A stretch of DNA of 64,000 nt, taken from assembly GCA_024911895.1 (NCBI GenBank), contig GCA_024911895.1_3948.1. One strand, given 5' to 3'. This document shows positions 48,090 through 55,116 of this stretch, one piece after another (the stretch's first letter is position 1; every line of letters begins with the position of its first letter). The notes under the pieces are model-generated. The model made no database searches, was not told where the DNA came from, and saw only the letters and a program-made list of their open reading frames with translations. The translations under genes and the position numbers were made by a program. Source of the DNA: a phage.

Positions 48090-48165
48090 TGGAGAATCCG
48101 AAGGGACTCGAACCCTTATAAACCTGTTTTGCAGACAGGCACATAGCCATTTCTGTCACGGATTC
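48090..48165 (-). tRNA. tRNA-Cys (GCA)
   Basis: Hand fold: acceptor GAATCCG/CGGATTC, anticodon arm CCTGT-CTGCAAA-ACAGG, T-arm GGGTTCGAGTCCC, CCA encoded. Confidence 0.75.
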
Positions 48166-48169
48166 AAAT

Positions 48170-48262
48170 TGGAGGAAGATACCAGACTTGAACTGGTACA
48201 CCGATTTCTCAGCTACTGGCAGTTTAGCAAACTGCTCCCTTACCTTTTAGGGTTAATCTTCC
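48170..48262 (-). tRNA. tRNA-Ser (GCU), type II
   Basis: 93 nt, acceptor GGAAGAT/ATCTTCC, anticodon loop TTGCTAA, long variable arm. Confidence 0.7.
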
Positions 48263-48263
48263 A

Positions 48264-48998
48264 TTATTTCTGTAATGCGTTCTTCATTTCTGGTGTTGCA
48301 ATAGCATCAATTACACCAGTTTTACAAGCATCATCAAACCAGTCTGGTAAGATACCTGCTAAGAACCCATTGATATTCGTTTTAAGGTACTCTGCAATAA
48401 GGGTAGCTTCTTCTTCAATCATCTGCACAACTTCATCTGCATAAGCTGTAATCTTTGAGATACCTTCATTAATCTTACTAACAGCCTGATTAGCTAAATC
48501 AGAAACAGTATCAAGACCCTTATCAATAGCATCTTGTAAGTCACTTAATACATCATTAACGCCATCTAGAGCATTATTGATAGTGTCAATAGCTTGCTGA
48601 CCATACTCTGTAGCAACACCCATAATACCACTGAATGGTGTACAACCAACTTGTTCTCCTGCTGCACCCATAACATTGGAATATCCCTTTGCTACCTGCA
48701 TACGTGATGAAAACTCATCAATAGACTTTTGACCGTAGTCTGTTAGGGTCTTAGTAGTTGCTGTAGTGCTTGTAAGGCTTGTTGTAAAGCTGTTTAGAAG
48801 GACTGTTGTAAGTCCAGCAGCAACAAGTTTCTCCTTCATTGTAGGGTCTGTTACAGAGCTAATAGAACTTACAAGTGATGTAGAGGCAGCTACGGTTCCA
48901 CCGAGAACTGCTGCACCAGTAATAAGTGGGTTAGAAAACCCTTTACCGGTTTTTAAGAGGTTAAAAATCTCCTTACCTTGTTCTGTCATCTCTTTCAT
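48264..48998 (-). CDS. Hypothetical protein embedded in tRNA array
   Basis: ORF 48264-49061 uses GTG and overlaps tRNA-Phe; internal ATG at 48998 or 48989 is the likely start. Confidence 0.4.
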   Translation of the reverse strand: MKEMTEQGKEIFNLLKTGKGFSNPLITGAAVLGGTVAASTSLVSSISSVTDPTMKEKLVAAGLTTVLLNSFTTSLTSTTATTKTLTDYGQKSIDEFSSRMQVAKGYSNVMGAAGEQVGCTPFSGIMGVATEYGQQAIDTINNALDGVNDVLSDLQDAIDKGLDTVSDLANQAVSKINEGISKITAYADEVVQMIEEEATLIAEYLKTNINGFLAGILPDWFDDACKTGVIDAIATPEMKNALQK

Positions 48999-49014
48999 TA
49001 AGCACCTTTGAAAT

Positions 49015-49090
49015 TGGTAGTCCAGTGGGATTTGAACCCTCTTCTCATGTTTTTCAGACACGCGCTTTAACCATATAAGCTACTTGGACT
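49015..49090 (-). tRNA. tRNA-Phe (GAA)
   Basis: Anticodon loop CTGAAAA, T-arm GGGTTCAAATCCC. Confidence 0.7.
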
Positions 49091-49096
49091 ATAAAT

Positions 49097-49172
49097 TGGG
49101 GTGACCTACGGGATTTGAACACGTATAGACCATGTTCACAGCATGGGTCATTACCATTTATGATAAGGCCAC
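49097..49172 (-). tRNA. tRNA-His (GUG)
   Basis: Anticodon arm CCATG-CTGTGAA-CATGG. Confidence 0.7.
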
Positions 49173-49203
49173 ATTTAAGGACTCTCGTAAGAACCCTTAG
49201 AAG

Positions 49204-49279
49204 TGGCAGCGGCATAAGGATTTGAACCTTAATAAGACAGCTTCAGAGACTGCTGCATTGCCAGTTATGCTATACCGCT
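49204..49279 (-). tRNA. tRNA-Gln (CUG)
   Basis: Anticodon loop CTCTGAA with two GU pairs in stem. Confidence 0.55.
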
Positions 49280-49284
49280 AAATT

Positions 49285-49363
49285 TGGTACTCCATATCGG
49301 ATTCGAACCGATACATAACACAGATTTTAAGTCTGGCCTCTCTACCAATTGGAGTAATGGAGC
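49285..49363 (-). tRNA. tRNA with anticodon UAA (Leu-type anticodon) but short variable loop
   Basis: Acceptor GCTCCAT/ATGGAGT, D-loop AATTGGTA, anticodon loop CTTAAAA, 7-nt variable region. Confidence 0.5.
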
Positions 49364-49365
49364 AT

Positions 49366-49441
49366 TGGCGGGGGATGTTGGAATTGAACCAACTTCTTCG
49401 ATTTCAAAGACCGAGGTTTTAACCTTGTAAACTAATCCCCT
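49366..49441 (-). tRNA. tRNA-Gln (UUG)
   Basis: Anticodon arm TCGGT-CTTTGAA-ATCGA. Confidence 0.65.
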
Positions 49442-49449
49442 TTAAATCT

Positions 49450-52882: not shown

Positions 52883-52888
52883 TTTATT

Positions 52889-52976
52889 TGGTGTGCCGTG
52901 TAGGAGTCGAACCTACCGAGTCTCAATGACAAGGGATTTACAGTCCCCACCGCTACCATCTACGGGATAACGACAC
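52889..52976 (-). tRNA. tRNA-Tyr (GUA), type II
   Basis: Anticodon arm GGGGA-CTGTAAA-TCCCT, long variable arm, T-stem GTAGG/CCTAC. Confidence 0.75.
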
Positions 52977-53045
52977 ATTTAATTTCTATTCAGGCTAAGG
53001 ACTTGCACCTTACAAATCGGTGAGCAATCGCTTCTCTCCTAAATT

Positions 53046-53122
53046 TGGCGGTTAGTCAGGGATTCGAACCCTGTGCCATTCGCTTAACAGGCGACCGCAC
53101 ATACCTTATGTGCTTCCTAACC
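53046..53122 (-). tRNA. tRNA-Asn (GUU)
   Basis: Anticodon loop CTGTTAA. Confidence 0.7.
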
Positions 53123-53179
53123 ATGTTTAGTATTGCCAGACCGTATCTTTCAATTTTTCCGCTAAAAATTTAATAAGTA

Positions 53180-53208
53180 TTGCTGTAAACGGTCTTCTGT
53201 AAATTTGG
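53180..53208. repeat. Repeat box copy B (TTGCTGTAAACGGTCTTCTGTAAATTTGG), abuts 3' end of tRNA at 53206
   Basis: Matches copy A; preceded by CCAGACC at 53136-53142. Confidence 0.6.
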
Positions 53209-53282
53209 AGGCGGGTGCAGGAGTCGAACCTGCCGATACCATGCTAATGAGACATGTGAGACGCCCTTTCTCTATACCCGCA
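53206..53282 (-). tRNA. tRNA with CAU anticodon (Met or Ile2)
   Basis: Anticodon loop CTCATTA; D region irregular. Confidence 0.55.
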
Positions 53283-53345
53283 ATTCTTAATGACCAGACC
53301 AAATCTCTTCTTTGTCCGATTTACCTTCAGATGAATAAGATTAAG

Positions 53346-53376
53346 TTTGCTGTAATTGGTCTTCTGTCAAAACTGG
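53346..53376. repeat. Repeat box copy C (TTTGCTGTAATTGGTCTTCTGTCAAAACTGG), abuts 3' end of tRNA-Glu
   Basis: Preceded by CCAGACC at 53294-53300. Confidence 0.55.
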
Positions 53377-53451
53377 CGTTCCAGAAGGGATTTGAACCCT
53401 CAAATATCCACTTTGAAAGAGTGGTGACTTTACCATTTTGTCTACTGGAAC
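53374..53451 (-). tRNA. tRNA-Glu (UUC)
   Basis: Anticodon arm CCACT-CTTTCAA-AGTGG, perfect acceptor. Confidence 0.75.
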
Positions 53452-53458
53452 ATTAATT

Positions 53459-53535
53459 TGGTCTCTGTTGGAGGACTTGAACCTCCGGCCTTACCGCCCC
53501 AAACGGAACGCTCTACCAAGCTGAGCTAAACAGAG
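53459..53535 (-). tRNA. tRNA-Pro (UGG)
   Basis: D-arm AGCTCAGCTTGGTAGAGC, anticodon loop TTTGGGG, T-stem GGAGG/CCTCC. Confidence 0.75.
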
Positions 53536-53657
53536 ATAAACTTTTCAAACTCTATGTAACCACTTTAACATTATTTTTTAGTGGTTGTCAAGAACTTTTT
53601 TAAAATATTTTTCAGTATCTTAGAAAAGCTCTCATTTCGTTTCTATGTAGAACATAT

Positions 53658-53695
53658 TAAAGGGTATCAAACACATTGTCAATACCCTTTTTAAA
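53658..53695. terminator. Palindromic hairpin AAGGGTAT-loop-ATACCCTT with T-run, just downstream of the vWA gene
   Basis: 8-bp stem 53660-53667/53682-53689. Confidence 0.4.
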
Positions 53696-53700
53696 ACTTT

Positions 53701-55116
53701 TTACCAGATGTAACGGTCAATCATTACTGCTTTGAGCATTACGCTGATTGGGTCAAACTTCTCACCACCAAGCAGAGCTTTTAAAGTGGCTGGAGAGAAC
53801 CCTGATACCATTGCTACACCATTATCCTTAACAGATACTTCGCAAGTGCCATTACGGTTTGCTAAGTACCAGAATACCAGTTGTGGCATTTCGTATCCAG
53901 CTTTTTTGTACTTACTCTGAATTGCTTCAAAGTTTGTACGACCGTTAGCACCATCAACCTGATTGAACTCCATATCGGAGAAGATTATAAGCTTACTTGG
54001 CATATCTTTCTGAGTCAAGTTGTTTCTTTTACCTGTCTCAAGAATACGGTCAAAAGCTGCTTGTAAGTTAGTTGAGCCATACTCAACATGACGCATTACC
54101 TGACGATGACGGTTTCGTAAATCACCACTCAGTTCGATGAAGTGAGGGTTTGTTGAATAAACCATCAACTCATTCTTAAAGCAACCTGTATTGCGTTCTG
54201 CTACATACAAGGCAAGTGATACACCAATATCCAGAGCAGTAATGGAGCCAAAATTCACCCAAGACATTGAACTTGATACATCAGACATACACAAGATGTT
54301 TTCACCTTCTGCCATCCAGTTTGGTAGTGCTTTCCACTGCTCATTAGCAACATCTGCATTACCATGCTTGACAGATTTAATCACATCGTATGGGTAAACG
54401 GCACCAGCATTAATCTTAGCCTCACCTTTTGATAAGGACTCAATGTAAGCTTTGTAACGTTCTCCATCCTTACGGTTAAACAGTTTTTGGTAACGTGCAG
54501 CAGCAAGTGAGGGAACCTTACTGTAGTCAATCTTGCCAAACTCATTAGCAGAGATTTTTTGCTCAACTGTATCAGATAGTGCAGATAACAGTGTGCGGTA
54601 CTCTTTCTCGCTCAAGTTGGCAAACTTGCAGAAACGTTTTACAAACTGCTTATGACGTGGTTTGACTCGTGGTAACCACTTAGCCGCCAAACCTGCTGTT
54701 GCAGGGTCTAGTAATGCTGCTTCTAAATGTTTGAAGGCATCTGTCTCGAAACAAGTACCCACGAAGATTTTGAAGTCATCAAAACGACCAAGTTCTGCAA
54801 TCTTATCCATAATGCGAAGAACCTGTGTAGGCTCTAAAACTTTATCTTCAATTGCTTGAAGCAAAACAGTTCTGAAGGCTTTACGCTCACCCATACCTTC
54901 TCGTACATCTCGCATATGAAGCAAAATACGAACTGCAACATCAACATCCTCACGCAAAGCTTTGTAGAACAGGTCTGGTAAGATTTCTACGTTGCTACGG
55001 CTTGAACCAGCAGCTTTGTAAAAGTCTACAAGAGCAGACATTGATGAAGTATGGTTTACAGCACCATTTTCAGTTCGACCTGCATGAAGGTGCGCATGTT
55101 TAAATAACTCGCTCAT
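53701..55116 (-). CDS. von Willebrand factor A domain protein, Ro60/TROVE-like candidate
   Basis: 471 aa; MIDAS motif CMSDVSSSMS, later IIFSDMEFNQVD and MVSGFSPATLKAL resemble Ro60 vWA segments; helical N-terminal region about 260 aa. Confidence 0.55.
   Translation of the reverse strand: MSELFKHAHLHAGRTENGAVNHTSSMSALVDFYKAAGSSRSNVEILPDLFYKALREDVDVAVRILLHMRDVREGMGERKAFRTVLLQAIEDKVLEPTQVLRIMDKIAELGRFDDFKIFVGTCFETDAFKHLEAALLDPATAGLAAKWLPRVKPRHKQFVKRFCKFANLSEKEYRTLLSALSDTVEQKISANEFGKIDYSKVPSLAAARYQKLFNRKDGERYKAYIESLSKGEAKINAGAVYPYDVIKSVKHGNADVANEQWKALPNWMAEGENILCMSDVSSSMSWVNFGSITALDIGVSLALYVAERNTGCFKNELMVYSTNPHFIELSGDLRNRHRQVMRHVEYGSTNLQAAFDRILETGKRNNLTQKDMPSKLIIFSDMEFNQVDGANGRTNFEAIQSKYKKAGYEMPQLVFWYLANRNGTCEVSVKDNGVAMVSGFSPATLKALLGGEKFDPISVMLKAVMIDRYIW

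What the first reader, a model, noticed from the sequence alone, without database searches (positions are those of the whole stretch)
48090..55116. vWA / Ro60-like protein gene directly upstream of a tRNA array rich in tRNA-like non-coding elements: candidate phage Ro60-Y RNA type module
The 471-aa protein (53701-55116) has a MIDAS motif (DVSSSMS) and C-terminal segments (IIFSDMEF, MVSGFSP) resembling the vWA domain of Ro60, with a helical N-terminal region. In bacteria Ro60 (Rsr) is encoded next to Y RNAs whose effector module mimics tRNA. Here the gene is co-oriented with a tRNA array that also holds tRNA-like hairpins lacking acceptor partners, a 19-bp inverted-repeat element, a T-armless tRNA-sized fold and aberrant tRNAs. 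The N-terminal region is shorter than a full TROVE domain, so the Ro60 assignment is tentative.
Basis: partly seen in the sequence, partly recalled or inferred. Interest (0 to 1): 0.8.

Follow-up and report, generated by a model that had tools for sequence, protein, structure and literature searches.

The report
Phage Ro60-like protein with partner RNAs
A FelixO1-type phage encodes a ring-shaped Ro60-like protein next to four small structured RNAs hidden in its tRNA array, and the same protein–RNA pairing recurs in many phages and giant viruses, with an RNA signature that resembles the so-far orphan "Class I" RNAs of social amoebae.

Summary

They are four co-oriented spacer elements in the tRNA array (53291-53369, 53137-53195, 52638-52717, 52493-52630). 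Each has a 7-8 bp terminal stem, a UACAGCAA motif directly after the 5' strand, and a CUG tail.

The fourth element also encloses V, T, closed-acceptor and D stem-loops, which is the order seen in the bacterial Y RNA YrlA.

This RNA signature travels with the gene. A model trained on other loci gave 34 of 34 hits on the gene strand in held-out loci. Starting from the motif alone, 23 of 51 stem-forming sites had the gene nearby, against 1 of 71 stem-less sites. Giant-virus loci carry it too.

The stem, motif and tail resemble Dictyostelium Class I RNAs, but only at sub-threshold Rfam scores.

Binding is inferred, not shown. A preprint already noted the Ro60 likeness and guessed at Y RNAs.

The parts
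53701..55116 (-). Gene for a 471-aa Ro60-like protein (DUF2828 + DUF7788): a helical ring domain (about residues 1-265) followed by a vWA domain with MIDAS motif D279-x-S281-x-S283.
55155..55184 (-). Sigma-70-like promoter (TTGACA-18-TAAAGT) upstream of the gene.
   Evidence: This is a consensus match only.
53562..53682 (-). Two sigma-70-like promoters (53682-53654, TTGACA-17-TAATAT; 53591-53562, TTGACA-18-TAAAGT) between the gene's stop codon and the first tRNA. A hairpin at 53690-53659 overlaps the first one.
   Evidence: and the sequence. If real, the array can be transcribed independently of the gene.
48090..53535 (-). tRNA array: 25 ARAGORN tRNAs, interrupted by three ORF-containing stretches and several structured spacers.
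53291..53369 (-). Short RNA element A, between tRNA-Glu and tRNA-Met. Outer stem UGAC/GUCA, main stem AGACCAA/UUGGUCU, motif UUACAGCAA, 3' CUG.
   Evidence: Rfam Dicty_Class_I_RNA 19.7 bits over the full model.
53137..53195 (-). Short RNA element B, between tRNA-Met and tRNA-Asn. Stem AGACCGU/ACGGUCU, motif UUACAGCAA, 3' CUG.
   Evidence: Held-out covariance model R1 gives 23.3 bits, E 0.035 in a 580-kb search. Rfam Dicty_Class_I_RNA 20.3 bits.
52638..52717 (-). Short RNA element C. Outer stem GAGC/GCUC, main stem AGACCAA/UUGGUCU, motif AUACAGCAA, 3' CUG.
   Evidence: (fold z -2.2).
52493..52630 (-). Long RNA element D. Outer stem UUAC/GUAA and main stem AGACCGUU/AACGGUCU plus UACAGCAA enclose a circularly permuted tRNA-like module: V hairpin 52576-52592, T-arm 52555-52571, closed 7-bp acceptor stem-loop 52537-52554, D-arm 52520-52534.
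   Evidence: The MFE fold reproduces every helix. The structural scanner finds it. The acceptor stem is 100% paired with three compensated versions in related phages. Twenty-two distinct homologous elements covary in all helices.
52351..52494 (-). Long-stem structured element directly 3' of D. A 22-nt inverted repeat encloses about 100 nt, with an inner hairpin AGAC-CUUAAGCAA-GUCU-GG. Whether it belongs to the module is unknown.
   Evidence: MFE -48.3 kcal/mol, z -5.64.

Best explanation
The window holds a viral Ro60/Y-RNA-type ribonucleoprotein module of a previously unrecognised subtype.

**Proposed parts**
- The 471-aa protein is a divergent Ro60: a HEAT-repeat ring plus a vWA/MIDAS domain.
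- Four small RNAs (A-D) are encoded in the spacers of the downstream tRNA array.

**Proposed mechanism (all steps inferred)**
- The RNAs are transcribed with the tRNAs, probably from the two promoters behind the gene.
- RNase P and the tRNA 3'-end nucleases process the flanking tRNAs and so set the spacer RNAs free.
- The RNAs bind the protein through their shared module: a 7-bp terminal stem, the single-stranded UACAGCAA motif next to its 5' strand, and the 3' CUG tail.
- The variable interior is the effector part. In A-C it is a short AU-rich loop. In D it is a tRNA mimic, as in the bacterial Y RNA YrlA, which could recruit tRNA-handling enzymes or an exoribonuclease to the ring.
- By analogy with Ro60-Y RNA-PNPase complexes, the complex would act on structured or damaged RNA during infection. 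It may contribute to the counter-defence activity reported for the Bas63 protein gp130 (orthology inferred).

**Shown here:** the protein fold, the existence and covariation of the RNA family, and its strand-specific linkage to the gene in phages and giant viruses.
**Not shown:** transcription, processing, binding and function.
For: **Protein**
- Full-length structural match to Ro60.
- Invariant MIDAS residues.

**RNA family**
- Four exact motif copies on the gene strand.
- The terminal stem covaries: 92.7% paired against 31-41% in slid controls, with all 8 pairs changing on both sides.

**Linkage, forward direction**
- Model R1 was trained on loci L017-L049 only.
- In held-out sequence it gave 34 hits at E <= 1, all on the gene strand.
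- Thirteen of the 32 held-out distant loci have a hit within about 600 nt of the gene.

**Linkage, reverse direction**
- Of 122 motif sites found in IMG/VR without reference to the protein, 51 form the stem.
- Twenty-three of those 51 have a DUF2828 gene on the same strand in the fetched stretch.
- Only 1 of the 71 stem-less sites does.

**tRNA-like form**
- The T, closed-acceptor and D module is found inside the stem-plus-motif in the window and in many distant loci, including L019, where ARAGORN calls no tRNA.
- Across 22 distinct elements, all 7 acceptor-stem pairs covary.
- The order V-T-AS-D matches the published YrlA order.
- L081's element is weakly hit by Rfam YrlA (26.7 bits).

**Breadth**
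- Giant-virus loci have the gene followed by 3-5 such elements.

**Literature**
- Bas63 gp130 is described as Ro60-like, directly upstream of the tRNAs, and a counter to the ppl defence system. Its orthology to this protein is inferred, not checked by sequence.
Against: - No experiment shows that these RNAs are stable transcripts or that they bind the protein.
- Pfam TROVE is not hit at E <= 1. A sequence profile reaches Ro60 only at E 0.35, in the vWA part.
- No Y_RNA or YrlA match reaches threshold.
- The canonical Ro-binding motif (GNCGAA / CGAA) is absent from the 5' region.
- gp130 alone, without the phage RNAs, rescues T7 on ppl hosts. At least that activity does not need these RNAs.
- One related phage (L008) lacks element D.
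- Twenty-eight of 51 stem-forming motif sites had no DUF2828 gene in the stretch fetched. Several of those contigs do carry the gene elsewhere.
- The covariation alignments were pre-selected for pairing.
Confidence: 0.7

Rival explanations
1. The spacer elements are leftovers or processing spacers of the tRNA array: decayed tRNAs, junctions of tandem tRNAs, or precursor stems for RNases. Their position next to the gene would then be mere synteny in Felixounaviruses.
For: - Element D looks like the 3' part of one tRNA followed by the 5' part of the next. In many relatives the acceptor loop begins with NCCA, as at a tRNA-tRNA junction.
- Rfam reads part of D as a weak tRNA (24.7 bits).
- The array holds other degenerate tRNA-like sequences.
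Against: - The same stem, motif and tail flank the gene in loci with no tRNAs nearby, such as L019, L068 and L075.
- The association holds in the reverse direction and in giant viruses.
- The acceptor stem-loop is kept paired through three compensated versions among close relatives while the T and D arms stay invariant. That argues for selection, not decay.
- A tandem-tRNA origin is compatible with a present function.
Confidence: 0.1
2. The protein acts alone as an anti-defence factor, for example against the Ppl ATPase-PHP system. The linked RNAs would have a separate role, such as decoys for tRNA-targeting nucleases or regulators, and would not form a complex with it.
For: - gp130 expressed from a plasmid or from T7, without Bas63 RNAs, restores plaquing on ppl hosts.
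- The array appears to have its own promoters.
Against: - Strand-specific, close linkage of gene and RNA is conserved over roughly 40-25% protein identity and across phages and giant viruses. This is hard to explain without a functional connection.
- Ro60 proteins are RNA-binding rings whose known partners are encoded next to them.
- Host RNAs could stand in for the phage RNAs in the T7 experiment.
Confidence: 0.15
3. The elements are cis-acting sites on the DUF2828 mRNA, such as autoregulatory operators or stability elements in its leader or trailer, and not independent RNAs.
For: In many distant loci the elements lie within 25-600 nt upstream or downstream of the gene, on the same strand.
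Against: - In the window they are 340-1200 nt downstream, beyond two promoter-like sites and two to eight tRNAs.
- In one phage group they sit about 6.5 kb away, beside a tRNA.
- They occur as tandem arrays of 2-5 copies, and one form carries a full tRNA-like module.
Confidence: 0.05

Closest known systems
Ro60 (Rsr) with Y RNAs, in particular bacterial and phage Ro60-YrlA/YrlB and Thermus phage phiLo Ro60-Yrl1/Yrl2
   Same: - The protein has the ring plus vWA/MIDAS architecture.
- Several small RNA genes are encoded next to the protein gene on the same strand.
- Their 5' and 3' ends pair in a terminal stem.
- One RNA carries a tRNA-like module in the order V-T-AS-D, while the others lack it, as with YrlA and YrlB.
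   Different: - The protein is not recognised by Pfam TROVE and belongs to DUF2828/DUF7788.
- The RNAs fail the Rfam YrlA and Y_RNA thresholds.
- They lack the GNCGAA/CGAA motif and instead have an invariant (U)UACAGCAA next to the stem and a CUG(U) tail.
- In this phage they are embedded in a tRNA array.
Dictyostelium Class I RNAs (Rfam RF01414)
   Same: - Length is about 60 nt, with a short terminal stem whose 5' G pairs with the C of a conserved 3' CUGU.
- A conserved motif lies directly after the 5' stem strand, with U, C, C, A, A at positions 3, 6, 9, 10 and 11. The interior is variable.
- The Rfam consensus GaUcuC-CUUACAGCAAU...GagAuC-UG aligns over its full length to elements A and B and to L036 and L046 elements (28.8 bits).
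- A giant-virus copy contains the exact CCUUACAGCAA.
   Different: - Scores are 19.7-28.8 bits, against a gathering score of 41.5.
- There are no Rfam hits at E <= 1 in the giant-virus loci.
- The window copies end in CUGG, not CUGU.
- Many phage copies have UUCAGCAA, one base shorter.
- There is no DUSE promoter context.
- The known direct binder in Dictyostelium is the RRM protein Rnp1A, not a Ro60-like protein.
- Class I RNAs were reported as absent outside Dictyostelia.
Bas63 gp130 (PhageMaP preprint, bioRxiv 10.1101/2024.10.10.617714)
   Same: - Bas63 is a Felixounavirus.
- The gene lies directly upstream of the tRNA array and is reported as structurally similar to Ro60.
- The authors speculate that some annotated tRNAs may be Y RNAs.
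- It is most likely the ortholog of the window's protein. This is inferred from position and genus, not checked by sequence.
   Different: - The preprint does not identify any RNA.
- The candidates found here are not annotated tRNAs but spacer elements with a distinct motif.
- The preprint supplies a phenotype (counter to the ppl defence system) that this analysis cannot address.

Membership tests
Ro60 / TROVE-vWA proteins | N-terminal TROVE domain recognised by sequence (Pfam PF05731) | tested here: not met
   Pfam scan at E <= 1 returns only DUF2828 and DUF7788. phmmer against PDB finds nothing. The profile reaches Ro60 only in the vWA part, at E 0.35.
Ro60 / TROVE-vWA proteins | HEAT-repeat ring plus vWA fold over the full length | tested here: met
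Ro60 / TROVE-vWA proteins | vWA domain with MIDAS motif DxSxS | tested here: met
   D279, S281 and S283 are invariant in 46 homologs.
Ro60 / TROVE-vWA proteins | Binds Y RNA or misfolded RNA | not testable with these tools
   Only genomic linkage to an RNA family is shown.
YrlA-type Y RNA (Rfam RF02553) | Score at or above the Rfam gathering threshold (69 bits) | tested here: not met
   No hit in the window at E <= 10. The best related element, L081 6715-6780, scores 26.7 bits.
YrlA-type Y RNA (Rfam RF02553) | tRNA-like domain in the order V, T, closed acceptor stem-loop, D, enclosed by paired 5' and 3' ends, encoded beside Ro60 on the same strand | tested here: met
   Element D. Relatives. 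Published order.
YrlA-type Y RNA (Rfam RF02553) | GNCGAAN0-1G (CGAA) Ro-binding motif near the 5' end | tested here: not met
   The 5' region of A-D reads ACAGAAGACCNNNUACAGCAA. The only GGCGAAG in D lies at the T-stem and is not conserved in relatives.
Dictyostelium Class I RNA (Rfam RF01414) | Score at or above the Rfam gathering threshold (41.5 bits) | tested here: not met
   19.7 and 20.3 bits in the window. 28.8 bits in L036 and L046. Nothing at E <= 1 in the giant-virus loci.
Dictyostelium Class I RNA (Rfam RF01414) | About 60 nt; a terminal stem with a 5' G paired to the C of the 3' tail; the 11-nt motif (U3, C6, C9, A10, A11) directly after the 5' strand | tested here: met
   Elements A-C are 59-80 nt. 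G-C is the near-invariant second pair (28 of 29). T13, C15, C18, A19, A20 and G44 are invariant in alignment A3. Features as defined.
Dictyostelium Class I RNA (Rfam RF01414) | Conserved 3' CUGU | tested here: inconclusive
   The consensus of distant elements is C-U-G-U-U. The window copies read CUGG.
Dictyostelium Class I RNA (Rfam RF01414) | Occurrence in Dictyostelia with an upstream DUSE promoter | tested here: not met
   These are phage and giant-virus sequences.

The most novel reading that the evidence does not exclude
DUF2828/DUF7788 proteins may be a large, unrecognised branch of the Ro60 family in phages, giant viruses and eukaryotes, with its own dedicated RNA partner family.

That family would be defined by a terminal stem, (C)UUACAGCAA and a CUGU tail. 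The abundant, functionally orphan Class I RNAs of Dictyostelia would be the cellular members of it. Class I RNAs would then be Y-RNA-like cofactors of a Ro60-like ring, possibly acquired from or shared with amoeba-infecting giant viruses.

The tRNA-mimic version in phages would be a second, independent invention of the YrlA design, made from tandem tRNAs.
Probability: 0.35. Interest if true: 0.9.

Novelty: new variant of a known kind. Interest (0 to 1): 0.82.

Why it matters
**Scale of the protein family.** Ro60-Y RNA particles are known from animals, some bacteria and a few phages with canonical TROVE proteins. Here a much larger viral protein family emerges as Ro60-like. It has thousands of members (3340 hits among the candidates scored), is annotated as DUF2828 or vaguely as 'RNA-binding protein', and comes with its own conserved RNA partners and a different recognition motif.

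**A concrete experiment.** This gives an RNA candidate to test for the counter-defence phenotype reported for Bas63 gp130.

**tRNA arrays.** Phage tRNA arrays can hide non-tRNA functional RNAs that standard tRNA and Rfam annotation miss.

**Origin of tRNA mimics.** The acceptor loops that begin with NCCA suggest how a tRNA mimic can arise from tandem tRNAs.

**Class I RNAs.** If the resemblance to Dictyostelium Class I RNAs reflects common ancestry or a common binding mode, it offers the first mechanistic lead for an RNA class whose function has been unknown since 2004. It also overturns the view that the class is unique to social amoebae.

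Tried and rejected
**Rfam searches**
- Y_RNA/YrlA on the window at E <= 10: nothing.
- Rfam on the giant-virus loci: no Class I hit at E <= 1.

**My own scanners**
- The first stem-plus-motif scan was too loose (707 hits against about 480 in shuffles) and missed the window's own spacing. I tightened it.

**Alignment and model building**
- MAFFT on full short elements misaligned the 3' stem. 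I therefore built the model from fixed-length 'ends-only' sequences.
- As a result R1 penalises long interiors. It does not detect elements C and D, and it mis-pairs A when run unfiltered.

**Resources that were unavailable**
- The AFDB50 fold search, needed to see eukaryotic and Dictyostelium members, was not on the machine.
- Avesson 2011, which names the four Class I RNA-associated proteins, is not held in the library.

**Attempts to reach named eukaryotic homologs**
- A homolog search from the divergent L189 protein gave only unnamed metagenomic sequences.
- The cluster look-up gave no organism names.

**Other negative results**
- NCBIfam and PADLOC give nothing useful.
- A literature search for transcript data on Felixounaviruses found nothing relevant.

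**Explanations considered and rejected**
- Rho-independent terminators: the elements have no U tract.
- REP/MITE-like mobile repeats: the elements are strand-specific, show compensatory changes and are linked to the gene.

Full report

**The protein.** By sequence it belongs to Pfam DUF2828 (E 4e-30) and DUF7788 (E 2e-43), and to PHROG 850. Pfam TROVE is not hit, and phmmer finds no solved structure. A profile of 46 homologs reaches Ro60 only weakly, in the vWA segment (E 0.35).

An AlphaFold2 model built on that alignment is confident (pLDDT 88, pTM 0.88).
- Foldseek against the PDB returns ten full-length Ro60/TROVE structures first: Xenopus, human and Thermus phage phiLo, at E 8e-9 to 1e-6. 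vWA-only proteins follow from E 2e-3.

So the ring and the vWA domain both match. The protein is Ro60-like by fold, though not a TROVE member by sequence.

**The RNAs in the window.** Reading the minus strand shows a repeated signature in the tRNA spacers. AGAAGACCNNNTACAGCAA occurs four times without mismatch, always on the minus strand. Each copy is followed 40-110 nt later by the complement, GGUCU, and then G. The inner stem bases covary between copies: AGACCAA/UUGGUCU in A and C, AGACCGU/ACGGUCU in B and D.
- Element A (53291-53369) lies between tRNA-Glu and tRNA-Met.
- Element B (53137-53195) lies between tRNA-Met and tRNA-Asn.
- Elements C (52638-52717) and D (52493-52630) lie between tRNA-Asp and tRNA-Lys.

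D is longer. Inside the terminal stem, its minimum-free-energy fold contains four parts:
- a 5-bp hairpin with a 7-nt loop;
- a canonical T-arm (GAAGG-UUCGAUU-CCUUC);
- a 7-bp stem closed by a tetraloop (ACUCGGC-AGAU-GUCGAGU);
- then UG and a D-arm (GUGU-AAUGGUA-GCAC).

This is a tRNA cloverleaf, circularly permuted and closed at the acceptor end. It is the order V-T-AS-D described for the bacterial Y RNA YrlA. Among 13 Felixounavirus-like loci the T and D arms are invariant. The acceptor stem-loop occurs in three fully paired versions (ACUCGGC/GUCGAGU, ACACG/CGUGU, ACCCUUC/GAAGGGU), with three pairs changed on both sides.

**Is the RNA family linked to the gene?** I fetched 80 viral loci encoding relatives of the protein, from 99% down to 39% identity. 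About a third of the distant loci also have tRNA clusters within 7 kb.

*tRNA-like module.* A structural scanner for the T, closed-acceptor and D module gave 82 hits, against 0-4 in shuffles. Many hits are ordinary tRNA-tRNA junctions. Several, however, lie directly beside the gene on its strand where ARAGORN calls no tRNA within 600 nt (L019, L021, L031, L039/L041, L081); in L019 it calls none in the whole locus. Each of these is enclosed by a covarying stem of about 8 bp, followed by U(A/C)(C/A)GCAA and closed by CUG.

*Stem-plus-motif signature.* A tightened scan found 368 hits on the gene strand against 145 on the opposite strand, with about 80 per strand in shuffles. Sixty-eight of 80 loci have a same-strand hit within 1.5 kb (some of these will be chance hits), often as tandem arrays of 2-4.

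*Covariance model.* I built model R1 from 29 elements taken only from loci L017-L049. The stem shows 92.7% pairing against 31-41% in slid controls, with changes on both sides in all 8 pairs. The eighth pair is weak, so the stem is effectively 7 bp, and the sequences were pre-selected for pairing.

*Held-out test.* The test set was the window, five Felixounavirus-like loci and L050-L081 (580 kb). R1 gave 34 hits at E <= 1. All 34 were on the gene strand, the best at 40 bits (E 2e-6), and element B scored E 0.035.

*Reverse test.* I scanned IMG/VR with AAAGGATNNNTWCAGCAA, without reference to the protein. This returned 122 sites, of which 51 form a 7/7 stem followed by G.

| | DUF2828 gene in fetched stretch | No gene in fetched stretch |
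|---|---|---|
| Stem-forming sites (51) | 23 | 28 |
| Stem-less sites (71) | 1 | 70 |

All 24 genes are on the motif's strand, mostly 130-580 nt away. Several of the 28 stem-forming sites without a gene come from contigs known to carry the gene farther away.

*Long elements.* A segment-wise alignment of 22 distinct long elements shows covariation in every helix. It is 95.5% paired against 38-44% in slid controls, and all 7 acceptor-stem pairs show 4-6 pair types. The same pre-selection caveat applies. Many acceptor loops begin with NCCA, which points to an origin from tandem tRNA copies.

**Beyond phages.** A divergent clade of about 555 aa, 25% identical to Vibrio-phage homolog P0050, has the same Pfam domains. 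Some of its members sit on 480-510 kb contigs beside B-family DNA polymerase, a D5/AEP primase-helicase, a protein kinase and glycosyltransferases. From established knowledge of Nucleocytoviricota hallmark genes, that is a giant-virus context. In these loci the gene is followed by a gene-free gap of 1-1.3 kb holding 3-5 stem-plus-motif elements. L205 7936-8000 scores 34 bits (E 8e-6), and L202 8017-8111 reads AAAAUCC-UUACAGCAAUC...GGAUUUU-GUU. A paper on tardigrade genome contamination independently calls DUF2828 proteins 'mimiviral-like'.

**Resemblance to Dictyostelium Class I RNAs.** Rfam's only non-tRNA hits on elements A and B are to Dicty_Class_I_RNA (RF01414). They score 19.7 and 20.3 bits and span the full model. 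The consensus GaUcuC-CUUACAGCAAU...GagAuC-UG aligns to GACCG-UUUACAGCAAU...ACGGUC-UG. Short elements beside the gene in L036 and L046 score 28.8 bits.

Kjellin et al. 2021 (PMC7919456) define Class I RNAs by these features:
- a length of about 60 nt;
- a short terminal stem with an invariant 5' G paired to the C of a conserved 3' CUGU;
- an 11-nt motif next to the 5' strand with U3, C6, C9, A10 and A11 nearly invariant;
- a variable interior.

The viral elements share all of these. The distant consensus ends in CUGUU, although the window copies end in CUGG. All scores stay below Rfam's gathering score of 41.5. The giant-virus copies are not hit at E <= 1. The known direct binder in Dictyostelium is the RRM protein Rnp1A, and three further associated proteins are unnamed in the text I could read. 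The paper naming them is not held. I could not test whether Dictyostelia encode a DUF2828 protein. The link is therefore a lead, not a membership.

**Prior work.** Canonical Ro60-Y RNA pairs are known in mycobacteriophages, CcrColossus, phage G and Thermus phage phiLo, all with TROVE proteins and CGAA-motif RNAs. A 2024 preprint (bioRxiv 10.1101/2024.10.10.617714) reported that gp130 of the Felixounavirus Bas63 is structurally similar to Ro60, lies directly upstream of the tRNAs, and counters the ppl defence system. It suggested that 'some tRNA genes are possibly Y RNAs'. It identified no RNA. Notably, gp130 alone rescues T7 on ppl hosts, so that activity does not require the phage RNAs. I found no paper reporting Class I-like RNAs outside Dictyostelia.

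**Interpretation.** The best explanation is a Ro60/Y-RNA-type module of a new subtype. It would consist of a divergent Ro60 ring protein and a family of small RNAs that share a protein-binding module (stem, UACAGCAA, CUG tail) and differ in their effector interior. One of them is a YrlA-like tRNA mimic.

In this phage the RNAs would be released by processing of the flanking tRNAs. The array has two strong sigma-70-like promoters just after the gene. Transcription, processing, binding and function are all inferred.

Rival readings are less well supported: decayed tRNA spacers, a protein acting alone with unrelated RNAs, or cis-elements of the mRNA. The reasons are the bidirectional, strand-specific linkage across very distant viruses, the compensatory changes, and the arrangement in the window.

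**Verdict.** Three corrections apply:
- The partner RNAs are the four spacer elements. The 22-nt inverted repeat and the aberrant tRNAs are not part of the conserved family.
- The RNAs are not members of the known Y RNA families.
- The Ro60 likeness of this gene had already been noted in a preprint.

What is new is the RNA family itself, its breadth across phages and giant viruses, and its unexpected resemblance to Class I RNAs.

Noticed in passing
window 52351-52494 (-): A 22-nt inverted repeat (95% complementary) encloses about 100 nt, directly 3' of element D. It folds with z = -5.64 and contains an inner hairpin, AGAC-CUUAAGCAA-GUCU-GG, that looks like a miniature of the stem-plus-motif signature. 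Its function is unknown.
   Followed up: partly
window 51697-51775 (-): A tRNA-like gene missed by ARAGORN (Rfam tRNA 31.7 bits). It has a 7-bp acceptor stem, an encoded CCA, the anticodon loop CUUCUAA (UCU, Arg), no D-arm and a long variable region. It also gives a weak tmRNA-like hit.
   Followed up: partly
window 51474-51548 (-): A sub-threshold tRNA-like sequence (tRNA-Sec model, 23 bits) with a CCA anticodon. Trp is the only amino acid missing from the 25 called tRNAs, so this may be an aberrant tRNA-Trp.
   Followed up: no
window 51112-51201 and 51353-51468: A 26-nt, 85% complementary hairpin sits just after tRNA-Leu(UAG). A separate 14-nt inverted repeat flanks tRNA-Ser(UGA) and extends its acceptor stem.
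   Followed up: no
window 52748-52759 (-): A run of 12 C in the spacer between tRNA-Asp and element C.
   Followed up: no
window 49754-49963 (-) and 55307-55446 (-): Two further stem-plus-GCAA matches lie inside protein-coding ORFs: AGAACCAU...AUGGCUCU-GG in the 185-aa ORF, and UGCUGAGU...ACUCAGCA-G in the DUF5681 gene. They are conserved in relatives but may only reflect coding constraint.
   Followed up: no
L017, L018, L021, L024, L036, L039, L040, L046 (e.g. L046 8521-8763): A third size class of 190-260 nt has the same terminal stem, motif and tail but a different, larger interior. It has no T-loop and no Rfam match. It occurs in loci including those from about 245-kb viral contigs.
   Followed up: partly
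L019 6378-6509, L013 9461-9579, L044 9154-9289 and others: The acceptor stem-loops of many tRNA-like elements begin with NCCA (e.g. ACUCCCC-GCCAAUU...-GGGGAGU). This suggests an origin from tandem tRNAs and possible RNase P cleavage or CCA-end exposure, as reported for M. smegmatis YrlA.
   Followed up: partly
L075 10710-11201 (+): A tmRNA gene (87 bits, E 1.5e-32) lies 2.3 kb downstream of the DUF2828 gene in a 250-kb viral contig.
   Followed up: no
L008 (Felixounavirus-like locus): This close relative has elements A-C but no element D, so the tRNA-like form is not universally retained within the genus.
   Followed up: no
L049, L051, L056, L057, L061, L077: In one group of large viral contigs (53-362 kb), the RNA elements sit about 6.4-6.8 kb downstream of the gene, next to a lone tRNA, and not adjacent to the gene.
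   Followed up: no
L001 (FelixO1) 4046-4459, 5377-5769, 6257-6742: FelixO1 carries three HNH endonuclease genes inserted in the tRNA array that the window lacks. This shows the array is a hotspot for insertions.
   Followed up: no
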